Assembly: GCA_964560975.1 (NCBI GenBank)
Contig: CAZLNE010000001.1
Coordinates: forward strand, 5,545 to 55,929
Direction of reading: 5' to 3'
Length of the DNA stretch: 50,385 nt
From: an uncultured Treponema sp.
GTDB taxonomy: Bacteria > Spirochaetota > Spirochaetia > Treponematales > Treponemataceae
Made by a program: the position numbers and the translations under genes. The notes under the pieces are model-generated. The model saw only the letters and a program-made list of their open reading frames with translations, was not told the DNA's origin and did not search any database. Shown here in pieces: positions 9,469 to 49,895 of the stretch. Position 1 is the stretch's first letter. Every line of letters starts with the position of its first letter.

Positions 9469-9473
9469 ACTCA

Positions 9474-9502
9474 ATAGTACCACGGAAAAAATGATTTGAC
9501 AA
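9474..9502 (-). promoter_or_regulatory. Putative promoter for the SAS-TPR gene, with leaderless geometry
   Basis: The minus strand reads TTGTCA (9502-9497), a 17-nt spacer, then TACTAT (9479-9474). Only 5 nt (TGAGT) separate it from ATG 9468, and there is no SD. Confidence 0.4.
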
Positions 9503-9525
9503 TTAAAACAATCCGACGAAAAGCA

Positions 9526-9556
9526 CAAAAAAAAGAGAGCAGAAAATCTGCCCTCT
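9526..9556 (-). terminator. Rho-independent terminator after flaA
   Basis: The minus strand reads AGAGGGCAG-ATTTT-CTGCTCTCT (9-bp stem with one mismatch) followed by a T-run of at least 8. Confidence 0.6.
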
Positions 9557-9581
9557 TTATCAAGATAAAACTAAGTTATTT

Positions 9582-10622
9582 CTATTCTGCTTCAAGTGAA
9601 GAAGTAAAAGCTTCTTCTTGAGCCATCTTGTCTTTTTCTAAGAAACGAAGAACCTGTTTATCACCGAATTTTGCCATTTCATAATTCTGTTTAGAAGTTT
9701 CTTTAGCATTAATAATACCCCAAAGATCTTCATCAGCAATGTCGCGTTCTGTTGAAAGTACAGCCTTATCAAAGATAATTTTTACGTCTTTGAAATAACC
9801 AATGAAATCATCGCCATTATGCATTGCATCACGTGTAATCTGGAAACCTATGAACTTTACAAAAGGAAGTCCGCGTGGATAAATTGGAACAATGCGAATT
9901 TCTCTCTGGCGGATTTCTGTAACATACTGTGGGTTATTCCACTTAAGTTCTCTCCAGCCGTCAAAACCAAGGTAACCCATGAAATAACGTCTTTCAGTAT
10001 TATCTGTGTCTTTTAACACAACATATAAACCATGGGGGTAGTTCATTCCCATTGTTGTTACAGAAAGAGCTTTAACAGTACCTACATTCTTTACAATTCC
10101 ATAACCATCTTCAAAACGTGTCTTACCGCTTGCTTTTTCTTCAGCAGTCTGAGGCTGAATTTGACCATTTTCATCAGCAGTAGCCATTGGCTCATAGGCA
10201 GGGATTTCAAAAGCAGGCTTAATGAACGCATTGGAATTAACCATAGCATTGGGGAAAAGTATTCTTACACCCATTACATTTTTACCAGCAAAAGGTACCT
10301 TAGCAGTGTCCCTTACAGGTGCCGGCACAACAGTTGATGTTGCTATACTTACTACAGTTTTTGCAGAAGAGTTAAGCTCTACTTCCCAGTTTGGCAGGCT
10401 GAGAGATGTTTTCATCAAAGCCTTCTGTTCCTCTGTAAAAGTAGCCCCTGCAGCGATACCGTAATTCATTACAGATCGTCTGTTTTGGGTGGGATTTTCG
10501 TTTTCATCAGCAATAATATCAGCATCCAAAATCGTAAAATCAATAATTGTTGCTTCTTCTGCAACCATAAAAGATCCAATAAGCAAAAACGCCATTACAA
10601 CTAAAATGAAAGTCCTTTTCAT
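9582..10622 (-). CDS. flaA: Periplasmic flagellar filament outer-layer (sheath) protein FlaA
   Basis: Signal peptide MKRTFILVVMAFLLIGSFMVA. Long collinear resemblance to treponemal FlaA as I remember it (IIDFT.L.ADI.AD, EEQKALM.SL....WEV.LNSSA, EEKASGK.RFEDGYG.VKNVG, MNYPHGLYV, YFMGYL.FD.W.EL.WNNP.Y, GYFKDVKII.DKAVLST.RD.ADEDLWGI). SD GGAG lies 6 nt upstream of the ATG. Confidence 0.9.
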   Translation of the reverse strand: MKRTFILVVMAFLLIGSFMVAEEATIIDFTILDADIIADENENPTQNRRSVMNYGIAAGATFTEEQKALMKTSLSLPNWEVELNSSAKTVVSIATSTVVPAPVRDTAKVPFAGKNVMGVRILFPNAMVNSNAFIKPAFEIPAYEPMATADENGQIQPQTAEEKASGKTRFEDGYGIVKNVGTVKALSVTTMGMNYPHGLYVVLKDTDNTERRYFMGYLGFDGWRELKWNNPQYVTEIRQREIRIVPIYPRGLPFVKFIGFQITRDAMHNGDDFIGYFKDVKIIFDKAVLSTERDIADEDLWGIINAKETSKQNYEMAKFGDKQVLRFLEKDKMAQEEAFTSSLEAE

Positions 10623-10666
10623 TCAAAGCTCCTTTTTATACACGTGATGTAGCCCTGTTTTATACA

Positions 10667-10694
10667 AGTATACGCATGATAAACGTTTTGTCAA
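10667..10694 (-). promoter_or_regulatory. Putative sigma70-type flaA promoter
   Basis: The minus strand reads TTGACA (10694-10689), a 16-nt spacer, then TATACT (10672-10667). Confidence 0.5.
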
Positions 10695-10720: not shown

Positions 10721-11212
10721 TTAGTAATCGTATATTTTACTACTTCCAATGTACAAGTTTATTATATCAATATTTCTGAAATTTCGAAACACATTTTTTC
10801 TAAAAATTTCAGCTCCTTCCTTGTTATTTGAAGAATCATTACCTGTAATATACAGTGCTTCTTCAGATAAGGTCACGTATAAGGTTTTATCTGCTACAAA
10901 ACAGGATAAAACCTTTGTTCCCCGAGGGAACAGCAGTCTATAACGATCTCCTATAGGTCCAAGTACAATATCTTCTATAAACTTCCGAAGGGTATTATCT
11001 TTAGCTACCTCAGGAAGAAACCTGGATTCTACATATAGACCGTCTTTATTCATATGCTCAAAACACACTATATAACGATTTTTCGAGTCATTTACAATCC
11101 ACAAAACAATCGAACAAATGCTGATGCATACAAGTAAAATAGCTAAAATACGGATTCTTACGTCTTTTAAGGTTTTCACCAAGTCTTCAAATACTTTTAA
11201 TACTATGCTCAT
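10721..11212 (-). CDS. GerMN-domain-like membrane-anchored protein
   Basis: N-terminal TM helix (ILAILLVCISICSIVLWIV) and a GerMN-like pattern (FIEDIVLGPIGDRYRLLFPRGTKVLSCFVADKTLYVTLSEEAL). A 4-nt overlap with the upstream amidase stop is the common amidase-GerMN pairing. Confidence 0.55.
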   Translation of the reverse strand: MSIVLKVFEDLVKTLKDVRIRILAILLVCISICSIVLWIVNDSKNRYIVCFEHMNKDGLYVESRFLPEVAKDNTLRKFIEDIVLGPIGDRYRLLFPRGTKVLSCFVADKTLYVTLSEEALYITGNDSSNNKEGAEIFRKNVFRNFRNIDIINLYIGSSKIYDY

Positions 11213-12246
11213 CGTGTCCCCGTAAAACCTCTAGACTGCTCAAAATGGGTTATAAAAGCTCCCAGTCCATTATATATCCCAAGGGCAATTTTGCGCAAGT
11301 ATATTTTATCATTTAATAGGCTTGCATCCTGCAAATTTGTGATAAATCCTAGTTCTATAAGTACACTCGGCATGTGAGCGTTTCGAACAACAAACCATTC
11401 CTCTTCCTTTATTCCTCTATTTGACATTTTCTGTCCAATTTGGTCATCCATTCCTTCGAGTATAAATTTAGCAATAAGTATACTTTCAGTGGTATATTCC
11501 TCTTCCATCATAGAATTAAGTATAGGAAGCAGATCCTTATCTACTCCGGAATCAGATAAAACACTTCTTCTGTAGCCCGGACTAAGATACCATACCTCGT
11601 AGCCTCCGGCTTTTTTATCAAAGGCTGCATTCACATGAACAGAAACATAGAGTATCGCCTCGTTGTCCTCCAGTTTTACTGAATTGGCAATATCTACACG
11701 CTGTTCGAGAGTTAAATAGGTGTCTGTTGAGCGGGTTAAAAGTATTTTTTTATCAGGATAGGTTTTTGATAAAAGCGAATGTAATTCAAGCGCTGTGGTT
11801 AGTGCAACATCTTTTTCTTGTATAGTCACTTTTTTACCATCGATAGTATGAGTATCAACTGCACCAGGATCCTTTCCGCCATGGCCTGGATCTATGAGTA
11901 TGGCTCCTACCCTGAACTCTGTATCACCAGTAAAGGTTGTGAAAAGATCTTCTGCAGTCTTGAGAAGTGAATTCGAAAGATACAGACTATTGCTGCTTAC
12001 TAGAGGAGGATCAATTATAAGGAGTTTTTTATAATCCAGAAGAGCAATGCTTTCTCCAGATATAAAACGTATAGTATGTCCATTTTTTTGTAAAACTCCG
12101 CTTCCTGTAAGAGGGTCCCAATAAACATAGGCATCAAGGCTTTCTACGGCAGTTACTGCATTGGTATAGCCGGAAGGTACCGTATCTGCAAAAAGAAGAG
12201 TTAAAGAGAAAACTGTAAGCAAACTAAAAAATAGCCCTTTTTTCAT
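11209..12246 (-). CDS. N-acetylmuramoyl-L-alanine amidase (Amidase_3 / AmiC-like)
   Basis: Signal peptide, then ILIDPGHGGKDPGA, LYVSVHVNA, and PSVLIELGFITN (zinc-ligand and fold motifs of Amidase_3). Confidence 0.88.
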   Translation of the reverse strand: MKKGLFFSLLTVFSLTLLFADTVPSGYTNAVTAVESLDAYVYWDPLTGSGVLQKNGHTIRFISGESIALLDYKKLLIIDPPLVSSNSLYLSNSLLKTAEDLFTTFTGDTEFRVGAILIDPGHGGKDPGAVDTHTIDGKKVTIQEKDVALTTALELHSLLSKTYPDKKILLTRSTDTYLTLEQRVDIANSVKLEDNEAILYVSVHVNAAFDKKAGGYEVWYLSPGYRRSVLSDSGVDKDLLPILNSMMEEEYTTESILIAKFILEGMDDQIGQKMSNRGIKEEEWFVVRNAHMPSVLIELGFITNLQDASLLNDKIYLRKIALGIYNGLGAFITHFEQSRGFTGTR

Positions 12247-13844
12247 CTCTGTTCCTCATCGAGCATATATAGAATTCCCTGTAAACCGCCGCGTATAAAA
12301 TAATGCCAAAACCGTTGTAAACAAACAGATTTTGATAGTTTTTCTTCTTTTTCTGCAATAGAAAAAAACTGTGTAAGCGAAAAATATGCCGACCTGTGAT
12401 TCCAATCAAGCATTCTTTCGTCATCTCTAAAGAATGGTTTTTTGATCACAAGATGTTGTAAAAAAATCTGCTTGAGATCCTTTATACTTACTGTAGCACC
12501 TTTTTCACCTGATATGAGTTCATCGTATTGTTTTTTGCTAATTTGATAGGCTGAAGGCGGAAATTCTGTAAAAACGTCTTCTTCTAAAAAATCCTTTGTG
12601 CTTTTTTGCTCAGGCGTAAGTCTTAAAACTATGGTTTTTACAGCGAGTTCTGCACTCTTCACCGCCTCTTCCCTGGTTTGGGCACAGCTTATAATATTGC
12701 CGCATTTTTCTACGTTGTTAACCGGAAAACTTACAAAATCTCCTTCTTTAGCCCTTGGAAAGATATCTTTTACTTGCGCACTGTTTTTTGCTTCGTCAAA
12801 TCCTTGTATAGATGCTATTTTTCCTGGAATGGAAATCCAGGCTCTCTCTGCGCTTACTTGATGAGACTCCAGAGAAATGCCTGTGAGCGGAATATAAGGC
12901 TCATCGCCGAGCGCTATTTGTAAGGCAAGTTTTGTCAGGTTTACACCAGAAGCATAGGGATAGGTCCAGCCTGACATGTATCCGCCTGAAAGACGGGCTG
13001 CTATTTCACCAATTTTAGGGCCGTCTTTTGTAAGTTTTACGTCGCCCTTTGCGGCACCGCAGTGTAAGCCAAGCGCAAAAACACCTTTTTTAAACTCATC
13101 AATGAGAAGATTTTTCTCGTTTATGGAAAATTTCGTCGGCATGGTGTGACCCATTTCTATAAAATACGGCGGATAATAAATATGTCTGTCTGCAAAACCG
13201 GTTATGTTTATTGTACCATTAAAAACGAGGGAATCTATAGAAAACTCAGGACCATCCATGTATTCTTCTATGATTGCTCTCTTGGAGCGGGAATATGAAA
13301 TCGCGGTTTTTACAGCACTTACTAATTCGTCAAAATTCCTGGCCATTCTGCATCCGCGGGCGCCCATGTTATCGACAGGTTTTACGACAAGGGGAAAGTT
13401 ATTAGATTCAAATCCATTTGTGTGAAGAAGGCCTTCCAGTGTTTCTGTTCCGTTGTCTGCTTCCGAGACTTCAAAAAATTTTGGTGAATTTACTCCGTGC
13501 GAGGAAAAACACTTTCTCATACGGATTTTATCGCTTGCATTTAATGAAGCTTCATATGAGTGTGAGAATAAACCGCACACTTCAGCAATTTTTGCGACTG
13601 CGGCAGAAAAGTCTGTTCCGGCAGTAAAAACGGCATCAATACCTGTGGTTTTTTTTAGATGTAAGGCATATTCACACAAGGCGCTGGTGTCTTTAAGATC
13701 AATGAGTGTAAATTCATCACATAAAGGAACACAATAGGCATCTTTATTTCCATCTGCTACTGTAACGCGGCAGCCGAGTTCTTTTGCAGTCATAATGGCA
13801 GGTTTTTGCATAAATCCTGCACCAAGGATAAAAACATTTCTCAT
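12243..13844 (-). CDS. ATP-grasp family carboxylate-amine ligase-like enzyme with an uncharacterised C-terminal extension of about 120 aa
   Basis: Rossmann-like pre-ATP-grasp N-terminus (MRNVFILGAGFMQKPAI...), FPLVVKPVDNMGARGCRMA, AIIEEYMDGPEFSIDSLV. The substrate is unknown. Confidence 0.78.
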   Translation of the reverse strand: MRNVFILGAGFMQKPAIMTAKELGCRVTVADGNKDAYCVPLCDEFTLIDLKDTSALCEYALHLKKTTGIDAVFTAGTDFSAAVAKIAEVCGLFSHSYEASLNASDKIRMRKCFSSHGVNSPKFFEVSEADNGTETLEGLLHTNGFESNNFPLVVKPVDNMGARGCRMARNFDELVSAVKTAISYSRSKRAIIEEYMDGPEFSIDSLVFNGTINITGFADRHIYYPPYFIEMGHTMPTKFSINEKNLLIDEFKKGVFALGLHCGAAKGDVKLTKDGPKIGEIAARLSGGYMSGWTYPYASGVNLTKLALQIALGDEPYIPLTGISLESHQVSAERAWISIPGKIASIQGFDEAKNSAQVKDIFPRAKEGDFVSFPVNNVEKCGNIISCAQTREEAVKSAELAVKTIVLRLTPEQKSTKDFLEEDVFTEFPPSAYQISKKQYDELISGEKGATVSIKDLKQIFLQHLVIKKPFFRDDERMLDWNHRSAYFSLTQFFSIAEKEEKLSKSVCLQRFWHYFIRGGLQGILYMLDEEQR

Positions 13845-13854
13845 ACGTAATTAA

Positions 13855-16419
13855 CTATAATTTATTGGGGATTTTAATACAATAGACTTCAAAGGTATCT
13901 CCTAATGAAAACATTTTGCTGATAACTGTACATAACGAAAACAAAAGGCTTCCCTTTTTTGCTCCTGTTTTTTGAATTATGGGAAAGCGTTCGCTATGAT
14001 GCCCTGTACAAACAATTTTTTTTACCTTAAAACCATTGTTGTGTAAGATTTTTTTGCAATTTTTTAATTCCCATAAGGTAAAGTGGTCCAAGGGGCTTTG
14101 CAAAAAAAACTTTTTTTCTGAAAATGTGCGCGATACGCCGCAAGCATTCGGCGTTGAAAATGCAAAGACTCCTTGATCAGTAAGAATATCATGTGTTTTT
14201 ACTAATACATCGTGCAGATTTTGAAAGTGTTCTATAACAAACCACATAGTAACTGCATCAAATTTTGTAAGGTTAAACTCTTTTTTAATATCTATTTTTG
14301 GATACTGTGCTGTGCAGGACTGAATTTTCAATTCATCCCTTACATAGCTGATTGCATCCGAGGAAATATCTGTTCCATAAGGAATAAACCCAGCATCCTT
14401 CGCTGCCGATAAAAAAGGTCCATAGGCACAGCCTACATCGAGAATGGTTCTTTTTACAGAAGTGTTCAATATTTTTTTTATTGTATGTACCCGGACGATG
14501 CCCATTTGTTTTATCTGCTCAAAGTCTTCAAGATACGTTTTTCCATACTGCTTTTTGTATTCTGTGAAAAAATACGATTTTGTATACGCAAGAGCACCGC
14601 CAGAAGTCCATGAAGGATAAAGCATTGTACAGTTTCTGCACCGTCTGATAGTTTTATTTTCAGCCCGTTCTATTACGCTATCTATGCTGTCTCGTTTTCC
14701 GCAAAGAGGACAATAATGTTCGCTTCCCTCAGAAAGGGACCGGATCAAATCAGGCAAGTTTTCTTCGTCTTCCGGCCCTGCATTATACAAGGGAGCAAAA
14801 TCAGGGTGCAGAGTTTTTAATCGTTCAGGTTTTTTGAGTACTCTTATAAAACTCTTTACTGATAGGTTTTTATTTGAAATATATGAAAATCCATATTTTT
14901 TTGCTAAGATTCGGTGCAGCGTTGTTGTTTCTAAAAGAATGAGAGGTATACCCAAAGAAACCGTTTCAAAGGCAGTAAGACCATAGTGGGTTATAACCAA
15001 ATCATATTCATGCAGTTTTCTAGATAACTGTAATATAGGCTTACGATAATTTATGCTGCTGCTAAGCTCCGGTGCTTCGTTTTGAAGGTTAGTACTATAC
15101 AAATCTGGAACTGTTGTTATTACATCGATTGAAAAAGAAGGAAAAATCTCTGATGCTGCCTTTGCACTCAAAAGAGAAGCCTTGTATGAAAGTTTTGCCG
15201 GGTCCTCCCCTCCCAAGCAAACTAGAATCTTCGCTTGATTTTTAGTATAAAAACTATCTGATAGCGGAACGAATTTTTCTCTTTTAGGCACATCCAAAAG
15301 ACGTATATTTTTATGATTTACCCTCTTTTGTTCTAGAGAAGGAATAATTTCAATGAGATACTGCATGGAATCTGTGTGAGAAGAACCGTCATCAATCGAC
15401 ACAACTGGGCCCAGGGAACTAAACAGCAGAGCATCTTCTTCTTTCATACTGAAAAAGTCGGCTGCGACAAGACTATAAGACTTTCTACGCTGAAAACTTT
15501 CAAGATTGCTTATGATTTGGGTATCAAATAATTCATTACTGTTAAGAGCGTCATCAATAAGAGCTCTTACACTCTGAGAACAGTCCGGAGGAATGTATAA
15601 ATCTGCTGATAACTTGGATGCTAAGGCTATCATGCGTTTGGCGTGTCCTGTTCCAAAACCCGGTTTTGTCTGCGGGATGCAAAGAACAGGGTGCCGAATA
15701 TGACTCTGAGAGAGAGCGTAAATTATCTGAGCAGCAGTATAGGGTTCTATAGATATGTTCATAGTATCAGCTGGTGTAATAAAATCTGCAATCCGCAAGG
15801 CTCTCCGGTAATCTGCATAGGTGTCGATGGTAGTTCGTAATTCAGGATGCGCCCATTGAGGAGGAGACGGCAGAAACGCACAATTCCACGTATCAGTGTG
15901 GTTATACAGCGCGGGACCTACATGCTCAGTATCGTAGGGGTCAGAGGTCAGCGTCTGAGACTTCAAGAGTGATTGAGCATTAAGTATTTCGACACCGCTT
16001 CCATGAGGGAGACCAGTATAAGTGCAATAATCGTATTGGTTGTTGCTGGCCTCCATTTGAAGAACTTCCTGTAAAAGACCTTGAGCTGCCTCGTAAAATA
16101 TAAAGGGGTTATCTCCTGTTGCTCTAACTATCCAGGAAACTTTTTTTCCTTGCTCCTGCTCTATCAGCCGTATAAGTGAGCAAAAGCGGTCAAGTACGTC
16201 ATTTTCGCTGCCGGCAAAGCATTTCCAAAGGTGTTTTTGTGCTATTGGTGCAAGCGTCTTATATGATGAAATATCAGTGGCAAGATAAAACTCATCACAT
16301 TCGAGTTTTTTCATTGCGCACAGAGTCCACTCTATACAGGTTTGCGAACCCAAAGGAAGCAAAGCCTTTGAAGGAAGCCTTGTTGAACCGAGGCGGCACT
16401 GAATAATGACTACGTTCAT
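13855..16419 (-). CDS. Three-domain protein: SpsF/acylneuraminate-type cytidylyltransferase, PseG/SpsG-like (GT28 C-terminal type) domain, and zinc-ribbon plus class I SAM methyltransferase
   Basis: The N-terminus reads MNVVIIQCRLGSTRLPSKALLPLG (cytidylyltransferase signature). The middle has GFGTGHAKRMIALASKL, ILVCLGGEDP and YDLVITHYGLTAFETVSLGIPLILL (PseG/MurG-like). The C-terminus has CPLCG...CRNC followed by ILDVGCAYGPFLSAAKDAGFIPYGTDIS (SAM motif I). Confidence 0.75.
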   Translation of the reverse strand: MNVVIIQCRLGSTRLPSKALLPLGSQTCIEWTLCAMKKLECDEFYLATDISSYKTLAPIAQKHLWKCFAGSENDVLDRFCSLIRLIEQEQGKKVSWIVRATGDNPFIFYEAAQGLLQEVLQMEASNNQYDYCTYTGLPHGSGVEILNAQSLLKSQTLTSDPYDTEHVGPALYNHTDTWNCAFLPSPPQWAHPELRTTIDTYADYRRALRIADFITPADTMNISIEPYTAAQIIYALSQSHIRHPVLCIPQTKPGFGTGHAKRMIALASKLSADLYIPPDCSQSVRALIDDALNSNELFDTQIISNLESFQRRKSYSLVAADFFSMKEEDALLFSSLGPVVSIDDGSSHTDSMQYLIEIIPSLEQKRVNHKNIRLLDVPKREKFVPLSDSFYTKNQAKILVCLGGEDPAKLSYKASLLSAKAASEIFPSFSIDVITTVPDLYSTNLQNEAPELSSSINYRKPILQLSRKLHEYDLVITHYGLTAFETVSLGIPLILLETTTLHRILAKKYGFSYISNKNLSVKSFIRVLKKPERLKTLHPDFAPLYNAGPEDEENLPDLIRSLSEGSEHYCPLCGKRDSIDSVIERAENKTIRRCRNCTMLYPSWTSGGALAYTKSYFFTEYKKQYGKTYLEDFEQIKQMGIVRVHTIKKILNTSVKRTILDVGCAYGPFLSAAKDAGFIPYGTDISSDAISYVRDELKIQSCTAQYPKIDIKKEFNLTKFDAVTMWFVIEHFQNLHDVLVKTHDILTDQGVFAFSTPNACGVSRTFSEKKFFLQSPLDHFTLWELKNCKKILHNNGFKVKKIVCTGHHSERFPIIQKTGAKKGSLLFSLCTVISKMFSLGDTFEVYCIKIPNKL

Positions 16420-17399
16420 ACGGTTTTATCATCCCATTGAGAAATCAGGTTTGCTGCATCTATTTTGAACCGGTACTTATTTGCTTCTACCCATAATCGG
16501 GCAGCTTTAAACATAGAAATTGAGTTAAAAAAAGAAGAAGAACGTCGCGCAAATCCGAAAAAAGAACTTATTGGAATATAGGCATAGTCACTGTTATAAA
16601 GCGGAAGCAGATTTTTCAAGTAAAAACGTAAATACGAGGTATCTACCGTTGTATCTTCTATAGGCGTACTATCTTCATAGGAAAGACGAAATAAGGGTGA
16701 ACAAAGTATTTTTTCGCCCCAAAGCCAGCTTCGCATGCAAAAATCGAGATTTTGCCAATATGGCGAGCAGATAGTATAGTCAAAACCGCCAAGGTGAATA
16801 AATCTTTTTCGATCGTAAATACCGATGAAATCGAAATTGTAAAGACTTGGACTTAAATCATATAACACCTGAGCCGGACTTACAGAAAACGCTGATTTTT
16901 CAATGAGAGGCTTCATTTTAACCAAAACGTTCTGCATCTGATCTGTTAACAGAACTGGTGCGGTACACAGGGCCTCTGCTTCTTGAAGCCGCTGCAGAAG
17001 CAGGTCAGAAAGCATATTTACTCGGGTTTTTATGTCGTCCCAAAGAACAAGAACATAGGGACTTTCCAGCTCACTCATGCTGATATTTATTTTTTCACCG
17101 GTAGTAATCTTTTCATGCGGAATAATAAATTTAACACAAGGATAGGTCCGGCTCAGTTCATCGATACTGTAATTATCACTGTGATGTTCAACTGATATAA
17201 TCGATTCAAACCCGTTTTTCATGAGCGATTCGAAAATCTGATTTTTATAATGACTTATCTCGCGGGTCAACACAACCACAGAAACAGGGTGTGACGCATA
17301 GGGATTCTTCTCTGTTCCCCCGAGGATAGTTCTCTCTATCTGCTTTTCGTTAAAAGTTAAAGGTATAGTATTCATCACACTTCCCGCATTTTTCACCAT
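16416..17399 (-). CDS. GT-A / family-2-like glycosyltransferase (tentative)
   Basis: VSVVVLTRE start of a GT-A fold, a possible DxD-like LVLWDD, and GGFDYTICSPYWQNLDFCMRSWLWGEKI, which resembles the GT2 (E/D)DxDFCxR segment. The start is either 17399 or ATG 17375. Both overlap the upstream stop. Confidence 0.5.
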   Translation of the reverse strand: MVKNAGSVMNTIPLTFNEKQIERTILGGTEKNPYASHPVSVVVLTREISHYKNQIFESLMKNGFESIISVEHHSDNYSIDELSRTYPCVKFIIPHEKITTGEKINISMSELESPYVLVLWDDIKTRVNMLSDLLLQRLQEAEALCTAPVLLTDQMQNVLVKMKPLIEKSAFSVSPAQVLYDLSPSLYNFDFIGIYDRKRFIHLGGFDYTICSPYWQNLDFCMRSWLWGEKILCSPLFRLSYEDSTPIEDTTVDTSYLRFYLKNLLPLYNSDYAYIPISSFFGFARRSSSFFNSISMFKAARLWVEANKYRFKIDAANLISQWDDKTV

Positions 17400-18924
17400 A
17401 GTTGTTAATACAATGGTTTTCCAGTTCTTTAGTTACATTATTCCATATTTTTTCTAAAGAATCAGTATATATAGTACCCATTACAAAATGCGAGTCCAAG
17501 GCCGCTGACGGAAGAACAGCTCTGCACATCGGCACAGTACCATCTATAAATATGGACACATCATTTCGTAAGTGCCAGCAGGGATTTCGAGTGACAGGAC
17601 TCAAGTCTGCAACTTTTTTATCAGAAAGCCCGCCTGCAAAATTATCGTACTTTTGGATGATTAATTCGCCGCTTTCCTGGGCCTTCCAGTACCGATAAAA
17701 GGCTTCCAGTTCTGCTTCGTTCTCCTTAAGTCTCATAAATTGCGGATACACAGCACCTGGAAAGTACTTTCTTAGTAATTCAACATTTTTTACTGCCTTG
17801 TTAAGTGTAAATTCATCGCGATGAAGAGATGTATACATTGCTTCAGTTGAAGCATCGACGCTTACAATCCAATATATGCTCTTTTGTCCATTTGTACGTT
17901 CACCGCTTTTCTTAACAAGTGCACTGATTCGTTCTACCTGTGCTTCTGTAAACTCAAACGAACACGTTTCAATAATGAGCGAGAGTTCTTTTTTGGCTAA
18001 AACAAGACTAATAAAGTCTTCTATTTCAGGGTGAAGTAAGGCCTCTCCCCACAAAGATAAGGAGATAACGGCATCTTCACTGTACAAGGAAATTTTTTCA
18101 ATGATATGCGAGAACTTTTCCTTTGATAAAAACTTATCAAGCTGCCTTTCTTGTTTTCCGTTCTGAACTTGATTTAAAAAGGCCGGATACGGACAATATG
18201 TACACGATGAACTGCAGGGTAAAGAAATTTGAATAGCATAAAATGACGGCAATGTTTTAAGAATTTCTGGTGAACTGCAAATTTTTTCAAAACTTTCTTT
18301 GTTTTCTTGCAAGCGGGAAAACATCCTCGTACATGACAGAGTAGTTCTTTTAGTTCCGCAGTGAAACTGCAGGCGTAAGTAACGCAAATCATAAGGTGCT
18401 ATATAGGTTTCAATTTCAAACGAGTTAATATCAGTCTTTAATAGGTCAAAGAAAGTCTCTCTGTGAACTTTTTCTTCGTTTTTTTTACAAATATTCTTAA
18501 GTATACGCACTGTACCGGCATCAATAATTTCTGGAGTTATGCCGTAAGGAAAGCCTTCTGCAAAGGTGTATTCACAGTGATAGGTGTGATGAAGCGAAAC
18601 AATTTCCTTTGTGTATGAGGGATTAAGAAAAGGGCAATCGGCCCAGGCATAGACAGTAGTGGTGAATCCTTCTTTCTGCATGAGTGCATCAATATGATCG
18701 AGCAGCAGGCCGGTATTCCATGAAGGCTCTATGATCTGTTCAATAGGAATTAGAGAAGATACACTTATAGTAAGGTTTTCTTTTGAAAAAACTATAACCT
18801 TCTCTGCTCCTTCTAGGCCAGCAGCCCACTCAACTGATACATCAAAGGCTGATTTTCCATCAAACTCTTTTTTCAACGCATATCCGGTTAAATTTCCGGC
18901 AAATAGTATTACACAGGTTTTCAT
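17350..18924 (-). CDS. Radical SAM enzyme with a C-terminal SPASM-type Cys-rich domain and an N-terminal nucleotidyltransferase-like domain (spiro-SPASM-like)
   Basis: CX3CX2C motif LPCSSSCTYCPYP (18193-18216). C-terminal Cys clusters NPCWHLRNDVSIFIDGTVPMC and CINNYGEKCGKCDEY. The N-terminus MKTCVILFAGNLTGYALKKEFDGKSAF resembles MobA/cytidylyltransferase-type folds. ATG 18924 is preferred over the track start 19020, which would overlap the divergent gene. Confidence 0.8.
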   Translation of the reverse strand: MKTCVILFAGNLTGYALKKEFDGKSAFDVSVEWAAGLEGAEKVIVFSKENLTISVSSLIPIEQIIEPSWNTGLLLDHIDALMQKEGFTTTVYAWADCPFLNPSYTKEIVSLHHTYHCEYTFAEGFPYGITPEIIDAGTVRILKNICKKNEEKVHRETFFDLLKTDINSFEIETYIAPYDLRYLRLQFHCGTKRTTLSCTRMFSRLQENKESFEKICSSPEILKTLPSFYAIQISLPCSSSCTYCPYPAFLNQVQNGKQERQLDKFLSKEKFSHIIEKISLYSEDAVISLSLWGEALLHPEIEDFISLVLAKKELSLIIETCSFEFTEAQVERISALVKKSGERTNGQKSIYWIVSVDASTEAMYTSLHRDEFTLNKAVKNVELLRKYFPGAVYPQFMRLKENEAELEAFYRYWKAQESGELIIQKYDNFAGGLSDKKVADLSPVTRNPCWHLRNDVSIFIDGTVPMCRAVLPSAALDSHFVMGTIYTDSLEKIWNNVTKELENHCINNYGEKCGKCDEYYTFNF

Positions 18925-18949
18925 AGTATGAGTATCGGCAAAAAAAAGC

Positions 18950-18978
18950 TTGCGCAACAGAAAACAGTGAGATACACT
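18950..18978 (+). promoter_or_regulatory. Possible promoter for the alpha-glucosidase/transporter pair
   Basis: TTGCGC (18950-18955), a 17-nt spacer, then TACACT (18973-18978). SD GGAGGGG precedes ATG 19013. Confidence 0.3.
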
Positions 18979-19012
18979 AAAATGAAGTTTTTTTTCACGG
19001 AGGGGAAAAGCT

Positions 19013-20719
19013 ATGACCAAAAACGAAAGTACTTGGTGGAAAGAAAAGGCTGTTTATCAGATTTATCCTAGAAGCTTTTGCGACAGCAATGGTGACGGTA
19101 TAGGTGATATTCCAGGTATTATTTCGAAACTTGATTACTTACAAGATCTAGGCATTGGGGTTATTTGGCTCTCACCGGTGTATTGTTCTCCAAACGACGA
19201 CAACGGATACGACATAAGTAATTATTGTGACATTCAAAAAGAATTCGGCTCACTTAAAGATATGAAAAAGCTTATAAGTGAAGCAAAAAAAAGGGATATC
19301 CGCATTATTATGGATCTAGTAATAAATCATACATCGGATGAACACCCCTGGTTTATCGAAAGCCGCAAAAGTACCGATAACCCCTACCGTGACTATTATA
19401 TTTGGCGGAAAGGAAAAAAAAATCTCAAAAATTCGTCTAAGGTTCATCAAAAACCGCCAAATAACTGGTCAAGTTTTTTTTCGGGTCCTGCCTGGGAATA
19501 CGATGGAACCACAGGAGAATACTATCTCCATCTTTTTTCTAGAAAACAACCCGACTTAAACTACCAAAATCCTAAAGTTCTTGCTGAAATTAAGGAAATA
19601 CTCAAATTCTGGCTAGATATGGGTATTAGCGGTTTCAGATGCGATGTTATAAATGTAATTTATAAAACAAGTCTTGAAGATGGAAAAAGACGGCTTGCGT
19701 TGACAGGCCGTGAACATTATGTTTCTCAGGAAGGTTGCCATAAAATTTTACAAGAACTCAAACGCAGTGTTTTTAGCGGTTATAACTGTTTTACGGTAGG
19801 AGAAACAGTACTGGTCGATACTTCAATGGCCAATGATCTGTGTTCTTCTGAGCGCGGGGAACTCGATATGGTCTTCAGTTTTGAACATATGGATACTGAT
19901 CATATTAATAATAAGTGGTTTAAAATAAAGTTTAAGCCTGATAAATTTACCAAAGTATTAACAAAATGGCAGTCCTGTCTTGACTGGAATGCAAATTATC
20001 TTGAAAACCACGACCAAATTAGAAGTGTTTCCCGTTTTGGAAATGACTCCAAGTATCATCTAGTTTCTGCGAAAATGCTCGCAACACTCCTGTTAACTCT
20101 GAGAGGGACTCCTTTTATTTATCAGGGTGAAGAAATTGGAATGACAAATGCCTATTTTTCAGACATGAGTGAAATTAAGGATGTAGAATCACATTATGTT
20201 TATAACTTAGCTAAAAAAATGCATTTTCCGTCAAGCATCAGATGGAAGATGATTCAAAAATCTACTCGTGATCATGCGCGCACTCCCATGCAGTGGAACA
20301 GCCAGGAAAACGCAGGTTTTTCTCTCAAAGGAAAAGCAGAACCATGGCTTAGAATAAACAGCAACTTTAGAACAATAAATGTAGAAAGACAAACAGCAGA
20401 CGAAAACTCTATTTTATCCTGCTACAAAAAGTTGTTAGTATTGCGTAATAGTAAAAAATCACTTTTGAACGGAAGTTTTTTTGCACTTCCTGCACCAAAA
20501 AATACGTATTGTTTTGAAAGAGAATTAGATAATGAACGATGCCTTGTACTTTGCAACCTATCAGACAGTCAAGTAAAACTTACTAAGCTGCTGCAGACAC
20601 ACATAAAAAACGGCTCAATTCTTTACTCTAATTATTATAGAACCACAGTAAAGGATCTTTCCTGTTTAGACCCTTATGAGGCGGTCATACTAGAATCTAA
20701 TAAAGGAGATGCAAAATGA
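19013..20719 (+). CDS. GH13 alpha-glucosidase (oligo-1,6-glucosidase / trehalose-6-phosphate hydrolase type)
   Basis: WWKEKAVYQIYPRSFCDSNGDGIGDIPGI, DLVINHTSDEH, GFRCDVINV, VGETV and ENHDQIR match GH13 conserved regions I-IV. Confidence 0.9.
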   Translation: MTKNESTWWKEKAVYQIYPRSFCDSNGDGIGDIPGIISKLDYLQDLGIGVIWLSPVYCSPNDDNGYDISNYCDIQKEFGSLKDMKKLISEAKKRDIRIIMDLVINHTSDEHPWFIESRKSTDNPYRDYYIWRKGKKNLKNSSKVHQKPPNNWSSFFSGPAWEYDGTTGEYYLHLFSRKQPDLNYQNPKVLAEIKEILKFWLDMGISGFRCDVINVIYKTSLEDGKRRLALTGREHYVSQEGCHKILQELKRSVFSGYNCFTVGETVLVDTSMANDLCSSERGELDMVFSFEHMDTDHINNKWFKIKFKPDKFTKVLTKWQSCLDWNANYLENHDQIRSVSRFGNDSKYHLVSAKMLATLLLTLRGTPFIYQGEEIGMTNAYFSDMSEIKDVESHYVYNLAKKMHFPSSIRWKMIQKSTRDHARTPMQWNSQENAGFSLKGKAEPWLRINSNFRTINVERQTADENSILSCYKKLLVLRNSKKSLLNGSFFALPAPKNTYCFERELDNERCLVLCNLSDSQVKLTKLLQTHIKNGSILYSNYYRTTVKDLSCLDPYEAVILESNKGDAK

Positions 20720-22089
20720 ACGAAAAGATAATTAAGAAAAACCGATACACCTTCGGAATGGGAACTATTGGACGCGATATGGTCTATTCGATGGTAAGCA
20801 TGTACCTCATCTTTTACCTAACTGATATTTTAAAGCTTAACGACACAGCAATCCTGTATTGTACAAACATAATGCTTGGGGCACGAATTTTTGATGCATT
20901 GAATGATCCAATTATGGGCACCATTGTTGATAATACAAAAACACGCTTCGGCAAATTTAAACCATGGATAGTCTTTGGAGCAATCTTCAGCAGTATTATT
21001 ACAGTTCTCCTTTTCACAGATATGGGTTTAACCGGGAGTAAATACATTGTTGTATTTGGGTTTCTTTATGTTTTCTGGGGCATGGCATTCACCACAAACG
21101 ATATTTCATATTGGTCAATGATGCCGTCGCTCAGTACTTCACAAAAGGAACGTGAAAAAATAGGCGCTATTGCTAGAATCTGTGCAAATATCGGCTTGTT
21201 TTTTGTCGTAAGCGCCATTGTCCCCATTACAAACACTCTTGGTGAAGTTTTCGGCAGTATGAGAACCGCATATATGGTATTTGCAATCGGCATTGTTTTT
21301 ATTCTTCTTGTATTTCAAGCGGTGACAGTATTTGGAGTTAAAGAAGTTGATACTCCAGTAGTGACAAGCGACAGAAAAGAATCCACAAGCCTAAAAGAAA
21401 TGTTTAAAGTTATTTTTAAAAATGATCAGCTTTGCGTAATAGCAATTTCAATGAGTCTCTTTATGATCGGTTACATGACAACAACAAGTTTTGGATTATA
21501 TTTTTTCAAATATGCATTTAAAAATGAGGGTATGTATTCAATTTTTGCAATCATCTTAGGTGTTGCCCAGCTTTCCGCCCTAAGTGTGTTTCCTCTTTTT
21601 AGTAAAAAATATAACAGAAAACAGCTCTACACTGCATCCATCATTCTCGTTTTAATCGGCTACATAGTATTCTTCTTCTCACCAATGAATATGATTCCCA
21701 TAGGCATAGCAGGATTATGCATCTTTTTCGGCCAAGCCTTTATTCAGCTTTTAATGCTCATGTTCCTAGCAGATACTGTTGAATACGGACAATGGAAGTT
21801 AGGTAAACGAAATGAAGGAGTCACATTCTCACTCCAGCCTTTTATAAATAAACTCGGCGGTGCAGTAGGTGCAGGTATTGTAGGTTACGTTGTAGTGCTT
21901 TCAGGAATTAATAGAGCTATAACGCCGGAAGATGTCACTTCTGAAGGATTATTATTATTGAAAATTGCAATGCTTATACTCCCCCTTATTTCAATTATTG
22001 CAGGTTTTATAGTATACTTAACGAAATTCAAGATTGATTCTGTTTTCTTTGATAAAATTGTATCAGATTTGGAAGCCGCAAAAAAATAG
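20716..22089 (+). CDS. Glycoside-pentoside-hexuronide (GPH/MelB-type) cation symporter
   Basis: 457 aa with about 12 TM helices and a MelB-like N-terminus (YTFGMGTIGRDMVYSMVSMYLIFYLTD, DALNDPIMGTIVDNTKTRFGKFKPW). A 4-nt overlap with the glucosidase stop. Confidence 0.85.
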   Translation: MNEKIIKKNRYTFGMGTIGRDMVYSMVSMYLIFYLTDILKLNDTAILYCTNIMLGARIFDALNDPIMGTIVDNTKTRFGKFKPWIVFGAIFSSIITVLLFTDMGLTGSKYIVVFGFLYVFWGMAFTTNDISYWSMMPSLSTSQKEREKIGAIARICANIGLFFVVSAIVPITNTLGEVFGSMRTAYMVFAIGIVFILLVFQAVTVFGVKEVDTPVVTSDRKESTSLKEMFKVIFKNDQLCVIAISMSLFMIGYMTTTSFGLYFFKYAFKNEGMYSIFAIILGVAQLSALSVFPLFSKKYNRKQLYTASIILVLIGYIVFFFSPMNMIPIGIAGLCIFFGQAFIQLLMLMFLADTVEYGQWKLGKRNEGVTFSLQPFINKLGGAVGAGIVGYVVVLSGINRAITPEDVTSEGLLLLKIAMLILPLISIIAGFIVYLTKFKIDSVFFDKIVSDLEAAKK

Positions 22090-44340: not shown

Positions 44341-44749
44341 AATTTGCAATATCATCCATAGTTTTTTCTTCATTGAGAAGAACACTGTAGCGGTGTTCTT
44401 CTTTTTTTTTGTCCTTAAGTTTTGTAAGAACCTTTCTATTTTTCATCTTTTCTGCCATGATTGCACGCTTTTCTTCAATAACCAGTTGTGCACGGGTCAA
44501 ATCTTCAAGTAGTTCCTCTGTCCGTAAATCAAGTCTTTGAATAAAATATTCGATTGACTGAAGTGTGATAATATCAGTAGTGAGTGAGCGGGAATAGGAT
44601 TGCTTATGTTTTTGCATTGCAATATCATTTAATTCTGATTGAATAATATCTGCAGCAGAAATAGAGCGGGCCAATTCTATTTGAGCTTCTTTTTCTTCAA
44701 ATTCACGCAGGTTTAATATTTTTTGTAAACTGAAGGTAAACTTTTTCAT
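44330..44749 (-). CDS. fliJ: Flagellar export chaperone-like protein FliJ
   Basis: 139-aa coiled-coil protein directly after fliI (4-nt overlap). C-terminal KLKDKKKEEH...EEKTMDDIA is typical of FliJ. Confidence 0.72.
   Translation of the reverse strand: MKKFTFSLQKILNLREFEEKEAQIELARSISAADIIQSELNDIAMQKHKQSYSRSLTTDIITLQSIEYFIQRLDLRTEELLEDLTRAQLVIEEKRAIMAEKMKNRKVLTKLKDKKKEEHRYSVLLNEEKTMDDIANSNT
44377..44410 (+). terminator. Rho-independent terminator for the plus-strand gene, embedded in the fliJ coding sequence
   Basis: Stem GAAGAACAC (44377-44385), loop TGTAGCG, stem GTGTTCTTC (44393-44401), then a T9 run (44402-44410). It starts 37 nt after the stop at 44340. Confidence 0.7.
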
Positions 44750-46113: not shown

Positions 46114-46116
46114 AGT

Positions 46117-47052: not shown

Positions 47053-47072
47053 ACAATATATCCTCCGTGCAA

Positions 47073-48149: not shown

Positions 48150-48150
48150 A

Positions 48151-49860: not shown

Positions 49861-49895
49861 GCCCCTCCCGTGAACGAACAATAATCTATTTCACT

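What the first reader, a model, noticed from the sequence alone, without database searches (positions are those of the whole stretch)
17350..18924. Radical-SAM/SPASM protein with an N-terminal nucleotidyltransferase-like domain (spiro-SPASM-like)
Three elements are directly visible. One is a canonical CX3CX2C cluster (LPCSSSCTYCPYP, 18193-18216). Another is a pair of downstream Cys-rich segments (CWHLRNDVSIFIDGTVPMC and CINNYGEKCGKCDEY), as expected for the auxiliary Fe-S clusters of a SPASM/twitch domain. The third is a ~230-aa N-terminal region that begins like MobA/cytidylyltransferase folds (KTCVILFAGNLTGYALKKEFDGKSAF). SPASM enzymes usually mature peptides or cofactors. A fusion to a nucleotidyltransferase-like domain in a sugar-modifying operon instead points to a nucleotide-linked small-molecule substrate. 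No precursor-peptide ORF is apparent nearby.
Basis: partly seen in the sequence, partly recalled or inferred. Interest (0 to 1): 0.62.

Follow-up and report, generated by a model that had tools for sequence, protein, structure and literature searches.

The report
Spiro-SPASM radical-SAM sugar-operon enzyme
This gene belongs to a catalogued but never-studied spirochete family: a disabled sugar-activating domain fused to a BtrN-like radical-SAM enzyme, at the head of a conserved sugar-tailoring operon beside the flagellar sheath gene, so it most likely modifies a sugar (probably for the flagellin glycan) rather than a peptide.

Summary
A 524-aa minus-strand ORF (17350-18924) carries CX3CX2C at 18193-18216 and two C-terminal Cys segments. 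It is a full-length member of NCBIfam TIGR04321 'spiro-SPASM protein' (538 bits, cut-off 250), a named family with no assigned function.

- **N-terminal half:** a cytidylyltransferase fold and a paralogue of the SpsF-type domain of the downstream 854-aa protein. The R/S/R/K triphosphate loop is gone family-wide.
- **C-terminal half:** BtrN-like. The 'SPASM' part is truncated to four invariant Cys (twitch type, one auxiliary cluster), and the protein ends 8 residues after CX2C.
- **Operon:** the gene opens a cluster conserved across Spirochaetia: a GT27-like GT-A partner, an SpsF/PseG-like/methyltransferase fusion, an ATP-grasp ligase, an amidase, a GerMN protein and flaA. Metatranscriptome contigs cover it.
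- **Motif loss:** CX3CX2C is missing in about 41-59% of sampled Treponema-type orthologues (at least 13 changes on the tree). It is kept in 96% of other Spirochaetia, and the rest of the protein stays conserved. This copy is intact.

Best reading: a radical-SAM tailoring enzyme for a nucleotide-linked or ulosonic sugar, probably the flagellin nonulosonic-acid glycan. The substrate and the chemical step are inferred, not shown. It is a new member of a known kind, of moderate interest.

The parts
17350..18924 (-). spiro-SPASM gene (524 aa plus stop)
   Evidence: ORF and translation. TIGR04321 at 538 bits against a cut-off of 250, full length. AF2 model pLDDT 88.3, pTM 0.88.
18250..18924 (-). N-terminal domain (about aa 1-225): cytidylyltransferase fold without the triphosphate-binding R/S/R/K loop
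   Evidence: Foldseek 6oew TMt 0.72, plus IspD, KdsB and NeuA. NTP_transf_3 in 19 of 32 and CTP_transf_3 in 4 of 32 homologues. hhalign to the neighbour's SpsF-type domain: probability 94%, E 1.5e-7, from residue 21 onward. Column counts.
17635..18249 (-). radical-SAM core (about aa 226-430)
   Evidence: Pfam PF04055 at residues 237-411. BtrN profile match at 230-342. Foldseek BtrN, anSMEcpe, MoaA, BlsE and DesII.
18193..18216 (-). CX3CX2C (C237, C241, C244), intact in this copy
   Evidence: All 13 members of the window's own clade keep it.
17353..17634 (-). twitch-type auxiliary-cluster domain (about aa 431-524). Conserved Cys are C449 (17578-17580), C467 (17524-17526), C513 (17386-17388) and C516 (17377-17379). 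The C-terminus CDEYYTFNF is near-invariant.
   Evidence: The four Cys are kept in 194, 191, 193 and 186 of 195 homologues, in 146-149 of 151 and in 119 of 119. BtrN's PC and CxxC Cys align to C467, C513 and C516.
16416..17399 (-). translationally coupled partner. The likely start is ATG 17375 (M9 of the ORF), overlapping the spiro-SPASM 3' end by 26 nt. It has a GT-A fold most like polypeptide GalNAc-transferases (GT27).
   Evidence: No Pfam or NCBIfam family. AF2 pLDDT 88.4. The top 50 Foldseek PDB matches are all ppGalNAc-Ts, E about 1e-12, TMq about 0.6. Adjacent in 78 of 80 loci. Kept with spiro-SPASM even in Entomospira.
13855..16419 (-). 854-aa fusion of an SpsF/PseF-type cytidylyltransferase, a PseG-like domain and a SAM methyltransferase
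   Evidence: CTP_transf_3 88.6 bits. Methyltransf_23 69.5 bits. TIGR03590 PseG 45 bits, below its 153.55-bit cut-off. Present in 74 of 80 loci.
12243..13844 (-). ATP-grasp ligase of the L-amino-acid-ligase type
   Evidence: LAL_C2, ATP-grasp_4 and ATP-grasp_3. Present in 68 of 80 loci.
11209..12246 (-). N-acetylmuramoyl-L-alanine amidase (Amidase_3); a second, cell-wall module
   Evidence: PF01520 at 161 bits. Present in 64 of 80 loci.
10721..11212 (-). GerMN (Germane) domain protein
   Evidence: PF10646 at 28.1 bits. Same position in L082.
9582..10622 (-). flaA (flagellar sheath protein), with its own promoter-like site at 10694-10667 and a terminator-like hairpin at 9558-9532
   Evidence: PF04620 at 258 bits. 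TTGACA-16-TATACT and a 12-bp stem followed by a T run. RNA contig depth is 20-200 times that of the upstream genes.

Best explanation
**Architecture (shown).** The gene encodes a three-part spiro-SPASM (TIGR04321) enzyme.
1. A cytidylyltransferase-fold domain, paralogous to the SpsF/PseF-type domain of the downstream 854-aa protein. It has lost the CTP-triphosphate-binding Arg/Ser/Arg/Lys loop.
2. A BtrN-like radical-SAM half-barrel with an intact CX3CX2C.
3. A four-Cys twitch domain that should hold one auxiliary [4Fe-4S] cluster.

**Mechanism (inferred).**
- The N-domain no longer makes CMP-sugars. It keeps the D-x-P and sugar-side motifs, so it may hold a CMP-linked or free 3-deoxy-2-ulosonic sugar and present it to the radical-SAM site.
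- There, 5'-deoxyadenosyl radical would abstract a sugar hydrogen.
- The outcome would be a BtrN-, DesII- or BlsE-type oxidation, dehydration or similar tailoring, with the twitch cluster taking the electron.

**Pathway (inferred).** The protein probably works with the translationally coupled GT27-like GT-A partner. The SpsF/PseG-like/methyltransferase fusion and the ATP-grasp ligase follow. Together they would build or attach a decorated nonulosonic-acid-type glycan, most plausibly the O-glycan of FlaB flagellins. The substrate, the exact reaction and the flagellin link are not shown.
For: **Family.** TIGR04321 at 538 bits against a cut-off of 250, end to end.

**Radical-SAM and twitch parts.**
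- The only PDB sequence-profile hit is BtrN (E 1.8e-8). It covers both the cluster loop and the C-terminal CxxC.
- Foldseek top hits are BtrN (TMt 0.68), anSMEcpe, MoaA, BlsE and DesII. BtrN, BlsE and DesII act on sugars or an aminocyclitol (my own knowledge).
- C449, C467, C513 and C516 are near-invariant.
- The protein ends 8 residues after CX2C.

**N-domain.**
- Cytidylyltransferase fold.
- Homologous to the neighbour's SpsF-type domain (hhalign 94%).
- Loop residues replaced family-wide.
- D96, P98, E118, Y119, G128, N167, D179 and R184 are near-invariant.

**Context.**
- The same gene order is found in up to 78 of 80 Treponema-type loci and in a 4.8-Mb Spirochaetaceae genome, up to flaA.
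- In T. pallidum, TP0284_285, TP0286_287 and TP0288_289 are three adjacent fused genes (PMC3265458). A SPASM annotation for TPASS_0285 and a methyltransferase annotation for TPASS_0289 (PMC4403809) fit the same module; equating the two is my inference.
- No conserved small ORF lies nearby.
- The partner has a protein-O-GalNAc-transferase-like fold.

**Fit to a known glycan.**
- T. denticola FlaBs carry a 450.2-Da 2-methoxy-4,5,6-trihydroxy-hexanoyl nonulosonic acid on Ser/Thr, and it is essential for filament assembly (PMC13439194, PMC9481697).
- PseI (TDE0960) is needed for it (PMC9862357).
- An O-methyltransferase, an amide-forming ATP-grasp and a CMP-activating enzyme are what such a glycan requires (inference).

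**Expression.** Metatranscriptome contigs cover 11206-17021 and 17080-18906. The divergent intergenic region 18907-19043 is uncovered.
Against: - No substrate or product is known for any family member, and no paper mentions the family.
- CX3CX2C is missing in 80 of 195 close homologues and in 89 of 151 cluster representatives, with at least 13 changes on the tree. These include cultured T. socranskii, T. porcinum and T. lecithinolyticum, whose operons are otherwise intact. The family's conserved role therefore cannot everywhere depend on SAM cleavage.
- T. denticola is reported to encode Maf-type flagellin glycosyltransferases (bioRxiv 10.1101/2023.12.03.569772), so the GT-A partner need not be the flagellin transferase.
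- Entomospira keeps only spiro-SPASM and the partner, without the SpsF/PseG/methyltransferase and ATP-grasp genes beside them.
- flaA has its own promoter and far higher RNA depth, so adjacency to flaA may be synteny only.
- The PseG match is below its family cut-off.
- No PseB, PseC, PseH or PseI genes lie in the window. The genome could not be searched because the genome search was shut.
Confidence: 0.55

Rival explanations
1. The family's conserved job does not use radical chemistry. The protein would be mainly a non-catalytic adaptor or scaffold for the GT-A partner, or a sugar-nucleotide-binding subunit. It would keep one structural or redox-sensing Fe-S cluster in the twitch domain. The radical-SAM site, where still present as here, would be an optional or vestigial extra.
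For: - CX3CX2C is lost in 41% of 195 close homologues and 59% of 151 representatives, in at least 13 events.
- Pairwise identity of the core is the same in both groups (0.451 against 0.449). 28 of the 41 core sites conserved at 90% or more stay conserved without the Cys triad. Relaxation is confined mostly to residues 237-247.
- The twitch Cys and the C-terminal CDEYYTFNF are near-invariant in both groups.
- The spiro-SPASM and GT-A pair is the minimal unit kept in Entomospira.
Against: - Outside Treponema, 114 of 119 homologues keep the motif, so radical-SAM activity looks ancestral and selected.
- This copy and all 13 members of its clade keep all three Cys.
- The GGE-like WGE motif is invariant in motif-keeping members.
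Confidence: 0.25
2. The operon modifies peptidoglycan or another cell-wall polymer rather than flagellin. The radical-SAM enzyme would tailor a nucleotide-linked wall precursor.
For: - An Amidase_3 peptidoglycan hydrolase and a GerMN protein are translationally coupled downstream.
- The ATP-grasp protein resembles D-Ala-D-Ala and L-amino-acid ligases.
- PseG-like domains share the MurG fold (my own knowledge).
Against: - Judging by gene numbers and annotations, T. pallidum has the spiro-SPASM / GT-A / SpsF-methyltransferase module apart from the amidase-flaA block (PMC3265458, PMC4403809, partly my recollection of TP0247-TP0249). In T. denticola, flaA has only four co-transcribed upstream genes (PMC9481697). 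Both point to two separable modules.
- The cytidylyltransferase is of the CMP-ulosonic-acid type (CTP_transf_3), not a wall-precursor type.
Confidence: 0.1
3. It is a classical SPASM peptide (RiPP) or protein maturase, like anSME, SuiB or ChlB.
For: - The Pfam SPASM model matches.
- anSMEcpe, SuiB and ChlB appear among the fold matches.
Against: - No precursor-peptide gene is conserved in 80 loci.
- Only four of the seven or eight SPASM cysteines exist, and the chain ends right after CX2C.
- No peptide-recognition (RRE) domain was found: the extra domain has a cytidylyltransferase fold.
- The best matches are small-molecule enzymes.
Confidence: 0.03

Closest known systems
NCBIfam/TIGRFAMs TIGR04321 'spiro-SPASM protein'
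   Same: Full-length match far above the curated cut-off. Homologues carry this name in NCBI and JGI records. Same domain order and same spirochete-labelled genomes.
   Different: Nothing differs; it is a member. The family has a name but no assigned function, and the paper library holds no text on it.
BtrN (butirosin 2-deoxy-scyllo-inosamine dehydrogenase; PDB 4m7t, 4m7s), the twitch-domain radical-SAM dehydrogenase
   Same: Best sequence-profile and fold match. CX3CX2C is followed by a short C-terminal domain whose PC...CxxC cysteines align with C467, C513 and C516. One auxiliary cluster is expected.
   Different: Only about 15% identity. BtrN has no N-terminal cytidylyltransferase-fold domain. 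The substrate is unknown here. The family often loses the SAM cluster.
DesII and BlsE (radical-SAM enzymes acting on TDP-sugar and cytosyl-glucuronic acid)
   Same: Fold matches at E 1.8e-7 to 5.8e-7. They are precedents for radical-SAM chemistry on nucleotide-linked sugars (my own knowledge).
   Different: Weaker matches than BtrN. They have no fused nucleotide-binding domain and a different operon context.
SpsF/PseF/NeuA/KdsB-type cytidylyltransferases (Pfam CTP_transf_3)
   Same: The N-domain has the same fold (6oew TMt 0.72; KdsB, NeuA). It is homologous to the SpsF-type domain encoded 1 kb downstream. It keeps the D-x-P and downstream sugar-side motifs.
   Different: It lacks the invariant Q/R/S/R/K N-terminal signature that the true enzyme next door keeps in 72 of 72 sequences. 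It is probably not a nucleotidyltransferase.
SPASM-domain maturases (anSMEcpe, SuiB, ChlB)
   Same: Pfam SPASM match and fold resemblance. Same CX12GX4C start of the domain.
   Different: The second half of the SPASM motif (CX5CX3C...C) is absent because the protein ends. There is no peptide substrate gene.

Membership tests
TIGR04321 spiro-SPASM | HMM score above the curated cut-off over the full model | tested here: met
   538 bits against a cut-off of 250; model positions 2-510 of 510.
TIGR04321 spiro-SPASM | Occurrence in spirochetes with the family's usual neighbours | tested here: met
   Nearest relatives are Treponemataceae and Spirochaetaceae MAGs. The gene order is shared with 64-78 of 80 loci and with L082.
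Radical SAM superfamily (PF04055) | CX3CX2C motif binding the SAM-cleaving [4Fe-4S] cluster | tested here: met
   C237, C241 and C244 are present. Note that 80 of 195 orthologues lack it.
Radical SAM superfamily (PF04055) | Partial TIM-barrel core fold | tested here: met
   Pfam 37.2 bits, above the 29.5-bit gathering score. AF2 model pLDDT 88 matches BtrN, anSME and MoaA.
Radical SAM superfamily (PF04055) | Reductive cleavage of SAM to 5'-deoxyadenosyl radical | not testable with these tools
   Needs anaerobic reconstitution and a 5'-deoxyadenosine assay.
SPASM domain (two auxiliary clusters) | Seven-Cys motif CX9-15GX4C - gap - CX2CX5CX3C - gap - C | tested here: not met
   Only CX12GX4C (C449...G462...C467) and CX2C (C513, C516) exist. 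The chain ends 8 residues later. The Pfam SPASM model covers just this first part.
Twitch domain (BtrN type, one auxiliary cluster) | Four Cys: two about 18 residues apart plus a C-terminal CX2C, on a beta-hairpin/helix fold after the core | tested here: met
   The four Cys are near-invariant. BtrN's PC and CKNC cysteines align to C467, C513 and C516. BtrN is the top fold match. Cluster occupancy itself was not tested.
CTP_transf_3 / NTP_transf_3 nucleotidyltransferases | Alpha/beta nucleotide-diphospho-sugar-transferase fold | tested here: met
   Foldseek 6oew TMt 0.72, rmsd 3.9 A, plus IspD, KdsB and NeuA. Pfam hits in 19 of 32 and 4 of 32 homologues. The window's own protein does not reach Pfam significance.
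CTP_transf_3 / NTP_transf_3 nucleotidyltransferases | N-terminal basic triphosphate-binding loop (R-x-x-S-x-R-x-x-x-K, or GxGxR...K) | tested here: not met
   The window has A9, G14 and K18. The family has Ala (160 of 195), a variable residue, and Glu/Asp (137 of 195) at these positions. The neighbour's true domain has R9, S12, R14 and K18 in 72 of 72. hhalign aligns only from residue 21.
RiPP / peptide-modifying rSAM-SPASM maturases | Adjacent precursor-peptide gene and a peptide-recognition domain | tested here: not met
   No conserved small ORF in the operon across 80 loci. The neighbours are GT-A, cytidylyltransferase, methyltransferase and ATP-grasp genes.

The most novel reading that the evidence does not exclude
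Spiro-SPASM together with its GT27-like partner is a spirochete-specific glycan machine, and the first radical-SAM enzyme of a nonulosonic-acid pathway. A dead cytidylyltransferase domain, copied from the operon's true enzyme, would hold the CMP-linked (or free) ulosonic sugar. The BtrN-like site would carry out an on-scaffold oxidation or deoxygenation needed for the unusual acyl-decorated sugar of FlaB flagellins. Treponema lineages that lost the Cys triad would make a simpler glycan while keeping the protein as a presenting subunit.
Probability: 0.2. Interest if true: 0.75.

Novelty: new member of a known kind. Interest (0 to 1): 0.4.

Why it matters
- Spirochete flagellins carry an unusual nonulosonic-acid glycan that, in T. 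denticola, is required for filament assembly and motility (PMC9481697, PMC13439194). In the literature I could reach, only PseI (TDE0960) is genetically linked to it (PMC9862357). The genes that add its methoxy-trihydroxy-hexanoyl decoration are not named in any paper I could read.
- This family sits in a conserved operon with exactly the enzyme types such a decoration needs. The module also appears to be kept in the very small T. pallidum genome (PMC3265458).
- Assigning it a function would fill a gap in spirochete motility biology. It would also add a new substrate class to radical-SAM sugar chemistry.
- The repeated loss of only the SAM-cluster cysteines in Treponema is a natural experiment. 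It allows comparison of flagellin glycans between species that keep the motif and species that lost it.

Tried and rejected
- **Literature:** 'spiro-SPASM' and 'TIGR04321' found no paper. The key Kurniyati 2017 paper (PMC5182079) is not held, so the T. denticola gene assignments come from citing papers only.
- **Genome search:** The genome search and the fetch from genomes were shut all session. Co-occurrence with pseB, pseC, pseH, pseI or maf in the window's genome and in relatives could not be tested.
- **Taxonomic reach:** the single genome-contig scan returned only the 80 best loci, all Treponema-type. Presence in Leptospira, Borrelia or Brachyspira was not established.
- **Link between motif loss and the partner:** I looked for a link between CX3CX2C loss and the partner's DXD-like motif (WDD, WND, RDS, QEE or HDD variants). 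There is no clear association: with CX3CX2C kept, 4 have DD and 22 other; with it lost, 8 have DD and 43 other.
- **Link between motif loss and operon content:** I saw no link between motif loss and loss of operon genes.
- **TTG 19020 start:** rejected. It overlaps the divergent glucosidase gene, and homologues start at MK(T/N).
- **RiPP reading:** rejected (see rival explanations).
- **Model coordinates:** not available in the Python box, so the Cys-Cys distances and the interface between the N-domain and the core could not be measured.
Full report
**1. The observation**

The finding's coordinates hold, on the minus strand. ATG 18924 to stop 17350-17352 encodes 524 aa. The ORF can be extended to TTG 19020. 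That start would overlap the divergent glucosidase gene (19013 onward), and homologues begin at MK(T/N).

Every quoted peptide is present. The three Cys of CX3CX2C (C237, C241, C244) map exactly to 18193-18216. The two C-terminal segments are residues 449-467 and 505-519. C505 is not conserved; the conserved cysteines there are C449, C467, C513 and C516.

**2. Identity**

- NCBIfam TIGR04321 'spiro-SPASM protein' matches end to end at 538 bits, against a cut-off of 250.
- Pfam finds Radical_SAM (residues 237-411) and SPASM (449-517).
- More than 600 homologues exist. Many are named 'spiro-SPASM protein' in NCBI and JGI records from Treponema, Treponemataceae and Spirochaetaceae.
- The nearest relatives (61-72% identity) are uncultured Treponemataceae MAGs.
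- The same sequence occurs in bioreactor, pig-gut, manure, wastewater and digester metagenomes.
- The paper library holds nothing on the family. It is catalogued but unstudied.

**3. The C-terminal half**

A profile of 32 homologues finds a single protein, BtrN (two PDB entries), in the whole PDB (E 1.8e-8). The match covers both the cluster loop and the C-terminal CxxC.

The AlphaFold model (pLDDT 88.3, pTM 0.88) matches BtrN best (E 6e-10, TMt 0.68). Next come anSMEcpe, SuiB, MoaA, BlsE and DesII. So a radical-SAM core is present.

The 'SPASM' part is only its first half. It has CX12GX4C (C449, G462, C467) and CX2C (C513, C516), and the chain ends 8 residues later with a near-invariant CDEYYTFNF. 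BtrN's PC and CKNC cysteines align to C467, C513 and C516. Four conserved Cys suggest one auxiliary cluster, which is the twitch pattern rather than a two-cluster SPASM domain.

**4. The N-terminal half**

Foldseek matches residues 1 to about 225 to a Leptospira cytidylyltransferase (6oew, TMt 0.72, rmsd 3.9 A), IspD, CMP-Kdo synthetases and NeuA. Pfam NTP_transf_3 matches 19 of 32 homologues and CTP_transf_3 matches 4 of 32.

hhalign shows the domain is homologous to the SpsF/PseF-type domain at the start of the 854-aa protein encoded about 1 kb downstream (probability 94%, E 1.5e-7). The alignment starts only at residue 21.

The excluded stretch is the catalytic loop. The neighbour keeps Q7, R9, S12, R14 and K18 in 72 of 72 sequences. 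The spiro-SPASM domain has Ala at 9 (160 of 195), a variable residue at 14, and Glu/Asp at 18 (137 of 195).

The domain does have its own near-invariant set (D96-x-P98-F99, E118-Y119, G124, G128, P131-E132, K163, D165-I-N167, E172, D179, R181, R184). Part of this set is shared with the true enzyme (ADcPFL against TaDNPFL; PyG..PEI against PHGSGVEI). I infer a ligand-binding, non-nucleotidyl-transferring module.

**5. Conservation of the Cys motifs**

| Sample | CX3CX2C kept | CX3CX2C lost |
|---|---|---|
| 195 distinct close homologues (all Treponema-type) | 115 | 80 |
| P0001 plus 150 representatives of 50%-identity clusters | 62 | 89 |
| 119 sequences (P0001 plus homologues of P0251, named hits non-Treponema): Spirochaeta, Salinispira, Entomospira, Spirochaetaceae | 114 | 5 |

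- Of the 80 that lost the motif, 39 have no Cys left in that segment.
- They include T. socranskii ATCC 35535, T. porcinum ATCC BAA-908, T. lecithinolyticum ATCC 700332 and strain OMZ 840.
- On a tree built without the motif columns, the state changes at least 13 times.
- The four twitch cysteines are kept in 186-194 of 195, 146-149 of 151 and 119 of 119 sequences.
- Without the triad the rest of the core is equally conserved (mean pairwise identity 0.449 against 0.451). Relaxation is concentrated at residues 237-247, plus S355, K414 and F429.
- The window's protein and its whole 13-member clade keep the motif.

My reading is that radical-SAM activity is ancestral. It is probably functional here, but it has been repeatedly dispensable in Treponema, while some other role of the protein stays under selection.

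**6. Context**

The gene heads a packed minus-strand cluster:

| Gene | Coordinates | Evidence |
|---|---|---|
| spiro-SPASM | 17350-18924 | |
| 327-aa partner (likely start M9 = ATG 17375, 26-nt overlap) | 16416-17399 | |
| 854-aa CTP_transf_3 / PseG-like / methyltransferase fusion | 13855-16419 | |
| ATP-grasp ligase | 12243-13844 | |
| Amidase_3 | 11209-12246 | |
| GerMN protein | 10721-11212 | |
| flaA | 9582-10622 | |

- The first five genes are in this order in 78, 74, 68 and 64 of 80 loci. The shortfalls are mostly contig ends.
- A 4.8-Mb Spirochaetaceae genome has the whole order from xseBA to flaA, with the cytidylyltransferase as a separate gene.
- Entomospira keeps only spiro-SPASM plus the partner.
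- In T. pallidum, resequencing fused TP0284+TP0285, TP0286+TP0287 and TP0288+TP0289 (PMC3265458). With TPASS_0285 annotated SPASM and TPASS_0289 annotated methyltransferase (PMC4403809), this looks like the same three-gene module. That equation is my inference.
- The partner has no Pfam or NCBIfam family. Its model (pLDDT 88.4) matches only polypeptide GalNAc-transferases in the top 50 (GT27; E about 1e-12, TMq about 0.6). Its DXD-like motif varies.

**7. Expression**

flaA has its own near-consensus promoter-like site (TTGACA-16-TATACT, 10694-10667) and a terminator-like hairpin (9558-9532).

Contigs from two metatranscriptomic runs cover the operon. One 5816-nt contig spans 11206-17021 and another spans 17080-18906. 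The divergent intergenic region 18907-19043 is uncovered, and flaA depth is 20-200 times higher. Contig depth is a poor measure and DNA carry-over is possible. The depth steps and the uncovered promoter region argue for real RNA: a weakly expressed polycistronic operon, with flaA transcribed strongly on its own.

In T. denticola, flaA is co-transcribed with four upstream genes from a sigma-70 promoter (PMC9481697).

**8. Mechanism**

*Shown:* the domain architecture, an intact SAM-cluster motif, four twitch cysteines, a disabled cytidylyltransferase paralogue, a conserved sugar-enzyme operon, and transcription.

*Inferred:*
- The N-domain holds a CMP-linked or free 3-deoxy-2-ulosonic sugar. 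The CTP_transf_3 family activates exactly such sugars (my own knowledge).
- The radical-SAM site abstracts a sugar hydrogen for a BtrN-, DesII- or BlsE-type oxidation or dehydration.
- The methyltransferase, the ATP-grasp ligase and the true cytidylyltransferase finish and activate the product.

The known T. denticola FlaB glycan is a 450.2-Da 2-methoxy-4,5,6-trihydroxy-hexanoyl nonulosonic acid (PMC13439194, PMC9481697). It needs an O-methylation, an amide-forming ligation and CMP activation. That is why flagellin glycan tailoring is my leading guess. By my own arithmetic, Pse5Ac7Ac with one acetyl replaced by that acyl group gives 450.19 Da.

Against this:
- Maf-type transferases are reported in T. 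denticola (bioRxiv 10.1101/2023.12.03.569772).
- Entomospira has only the pair.
- The SAM-cluster cysteines are widely lost.
- The amidase/GerMN/flaA block is probably a separate module.

**9. Novelty and score**

This is a new member of a catalogued family, not a new kind. The function is a real open question with a testable link to spirochete flagellin glycosylation, and the pattern of motif loss is unusual. The same family and operon have already been noted several times in this scan. Those notes agree with my independent results but are not independent evidence. Interest 0.4.

Noticed in passing
window 16416-17399 (-): The 327-aa partner matches no Pfam or NCBIfam model, yet it folds confidently into a GT-A domain. 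All of its 50 best PDB matches are eukaryotic polypeptide GalNAc-transferases (GT27). Its DXD-like motif varies between lineages (WDD, WND, RDS, RDT, QEE, HDD).
   Followed up: partly
window 9532-10694 (-): flaA has its own near-consensus promoter-like site and a strong terminator-like hairpin. In two metatranscriptomes its contig depth is 20-200 times that of the upstream operon.
   Followed up: partly
window 19013-22089 (+): An alpha-glucosidase gene and a sugar-transporter gene lie between xseA and the operon. This is so only here and in the closest locus, L001. In 58 other loci xseA is the neighbouring divergent gene, usually directly adjacent.
   Followed up: partly
window 18925-19020 (-): The in-frame upstream stretch (LLRKLFFADTHT) recurs as an N-terminal extension (MLRKLFFAD...) in several called homologues (P0003, P0005, P0007). 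No Shine-Dalgarno sequence precedes ATG 18924, and RNA contigs end at 18906 and 18870. The leader may be very short or absent, with conserved promoter DNA read as protein.
   Followed up: no
L081 10001-12389 (Entomospira entomophila): This small genome keeps only the spiro-SPASM gene and the GT-A partner side by side. The cytidylyltransferase, PseG/methyltransferase, ATP-grasp, amidase and flaA genes are not beside them.
   Followed up: no
window 44746-49881 (-): fliI, fliH and fliG (flagellar export ATPase, its stator and the rotor switch protein) lie about 26 kb from the operon. No pseB, pseC, pseH or pseI-like genes were seen in the window.
   Followed up: partly
window 5540-8017 (-) and 8218-9528 (-): A JAB/RadC-like N-terminus fused to a DinG-type helicase, and a small alarmone synthetase with C-terminal TPR repeats directly downstream of flaA.
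   Followed up: no
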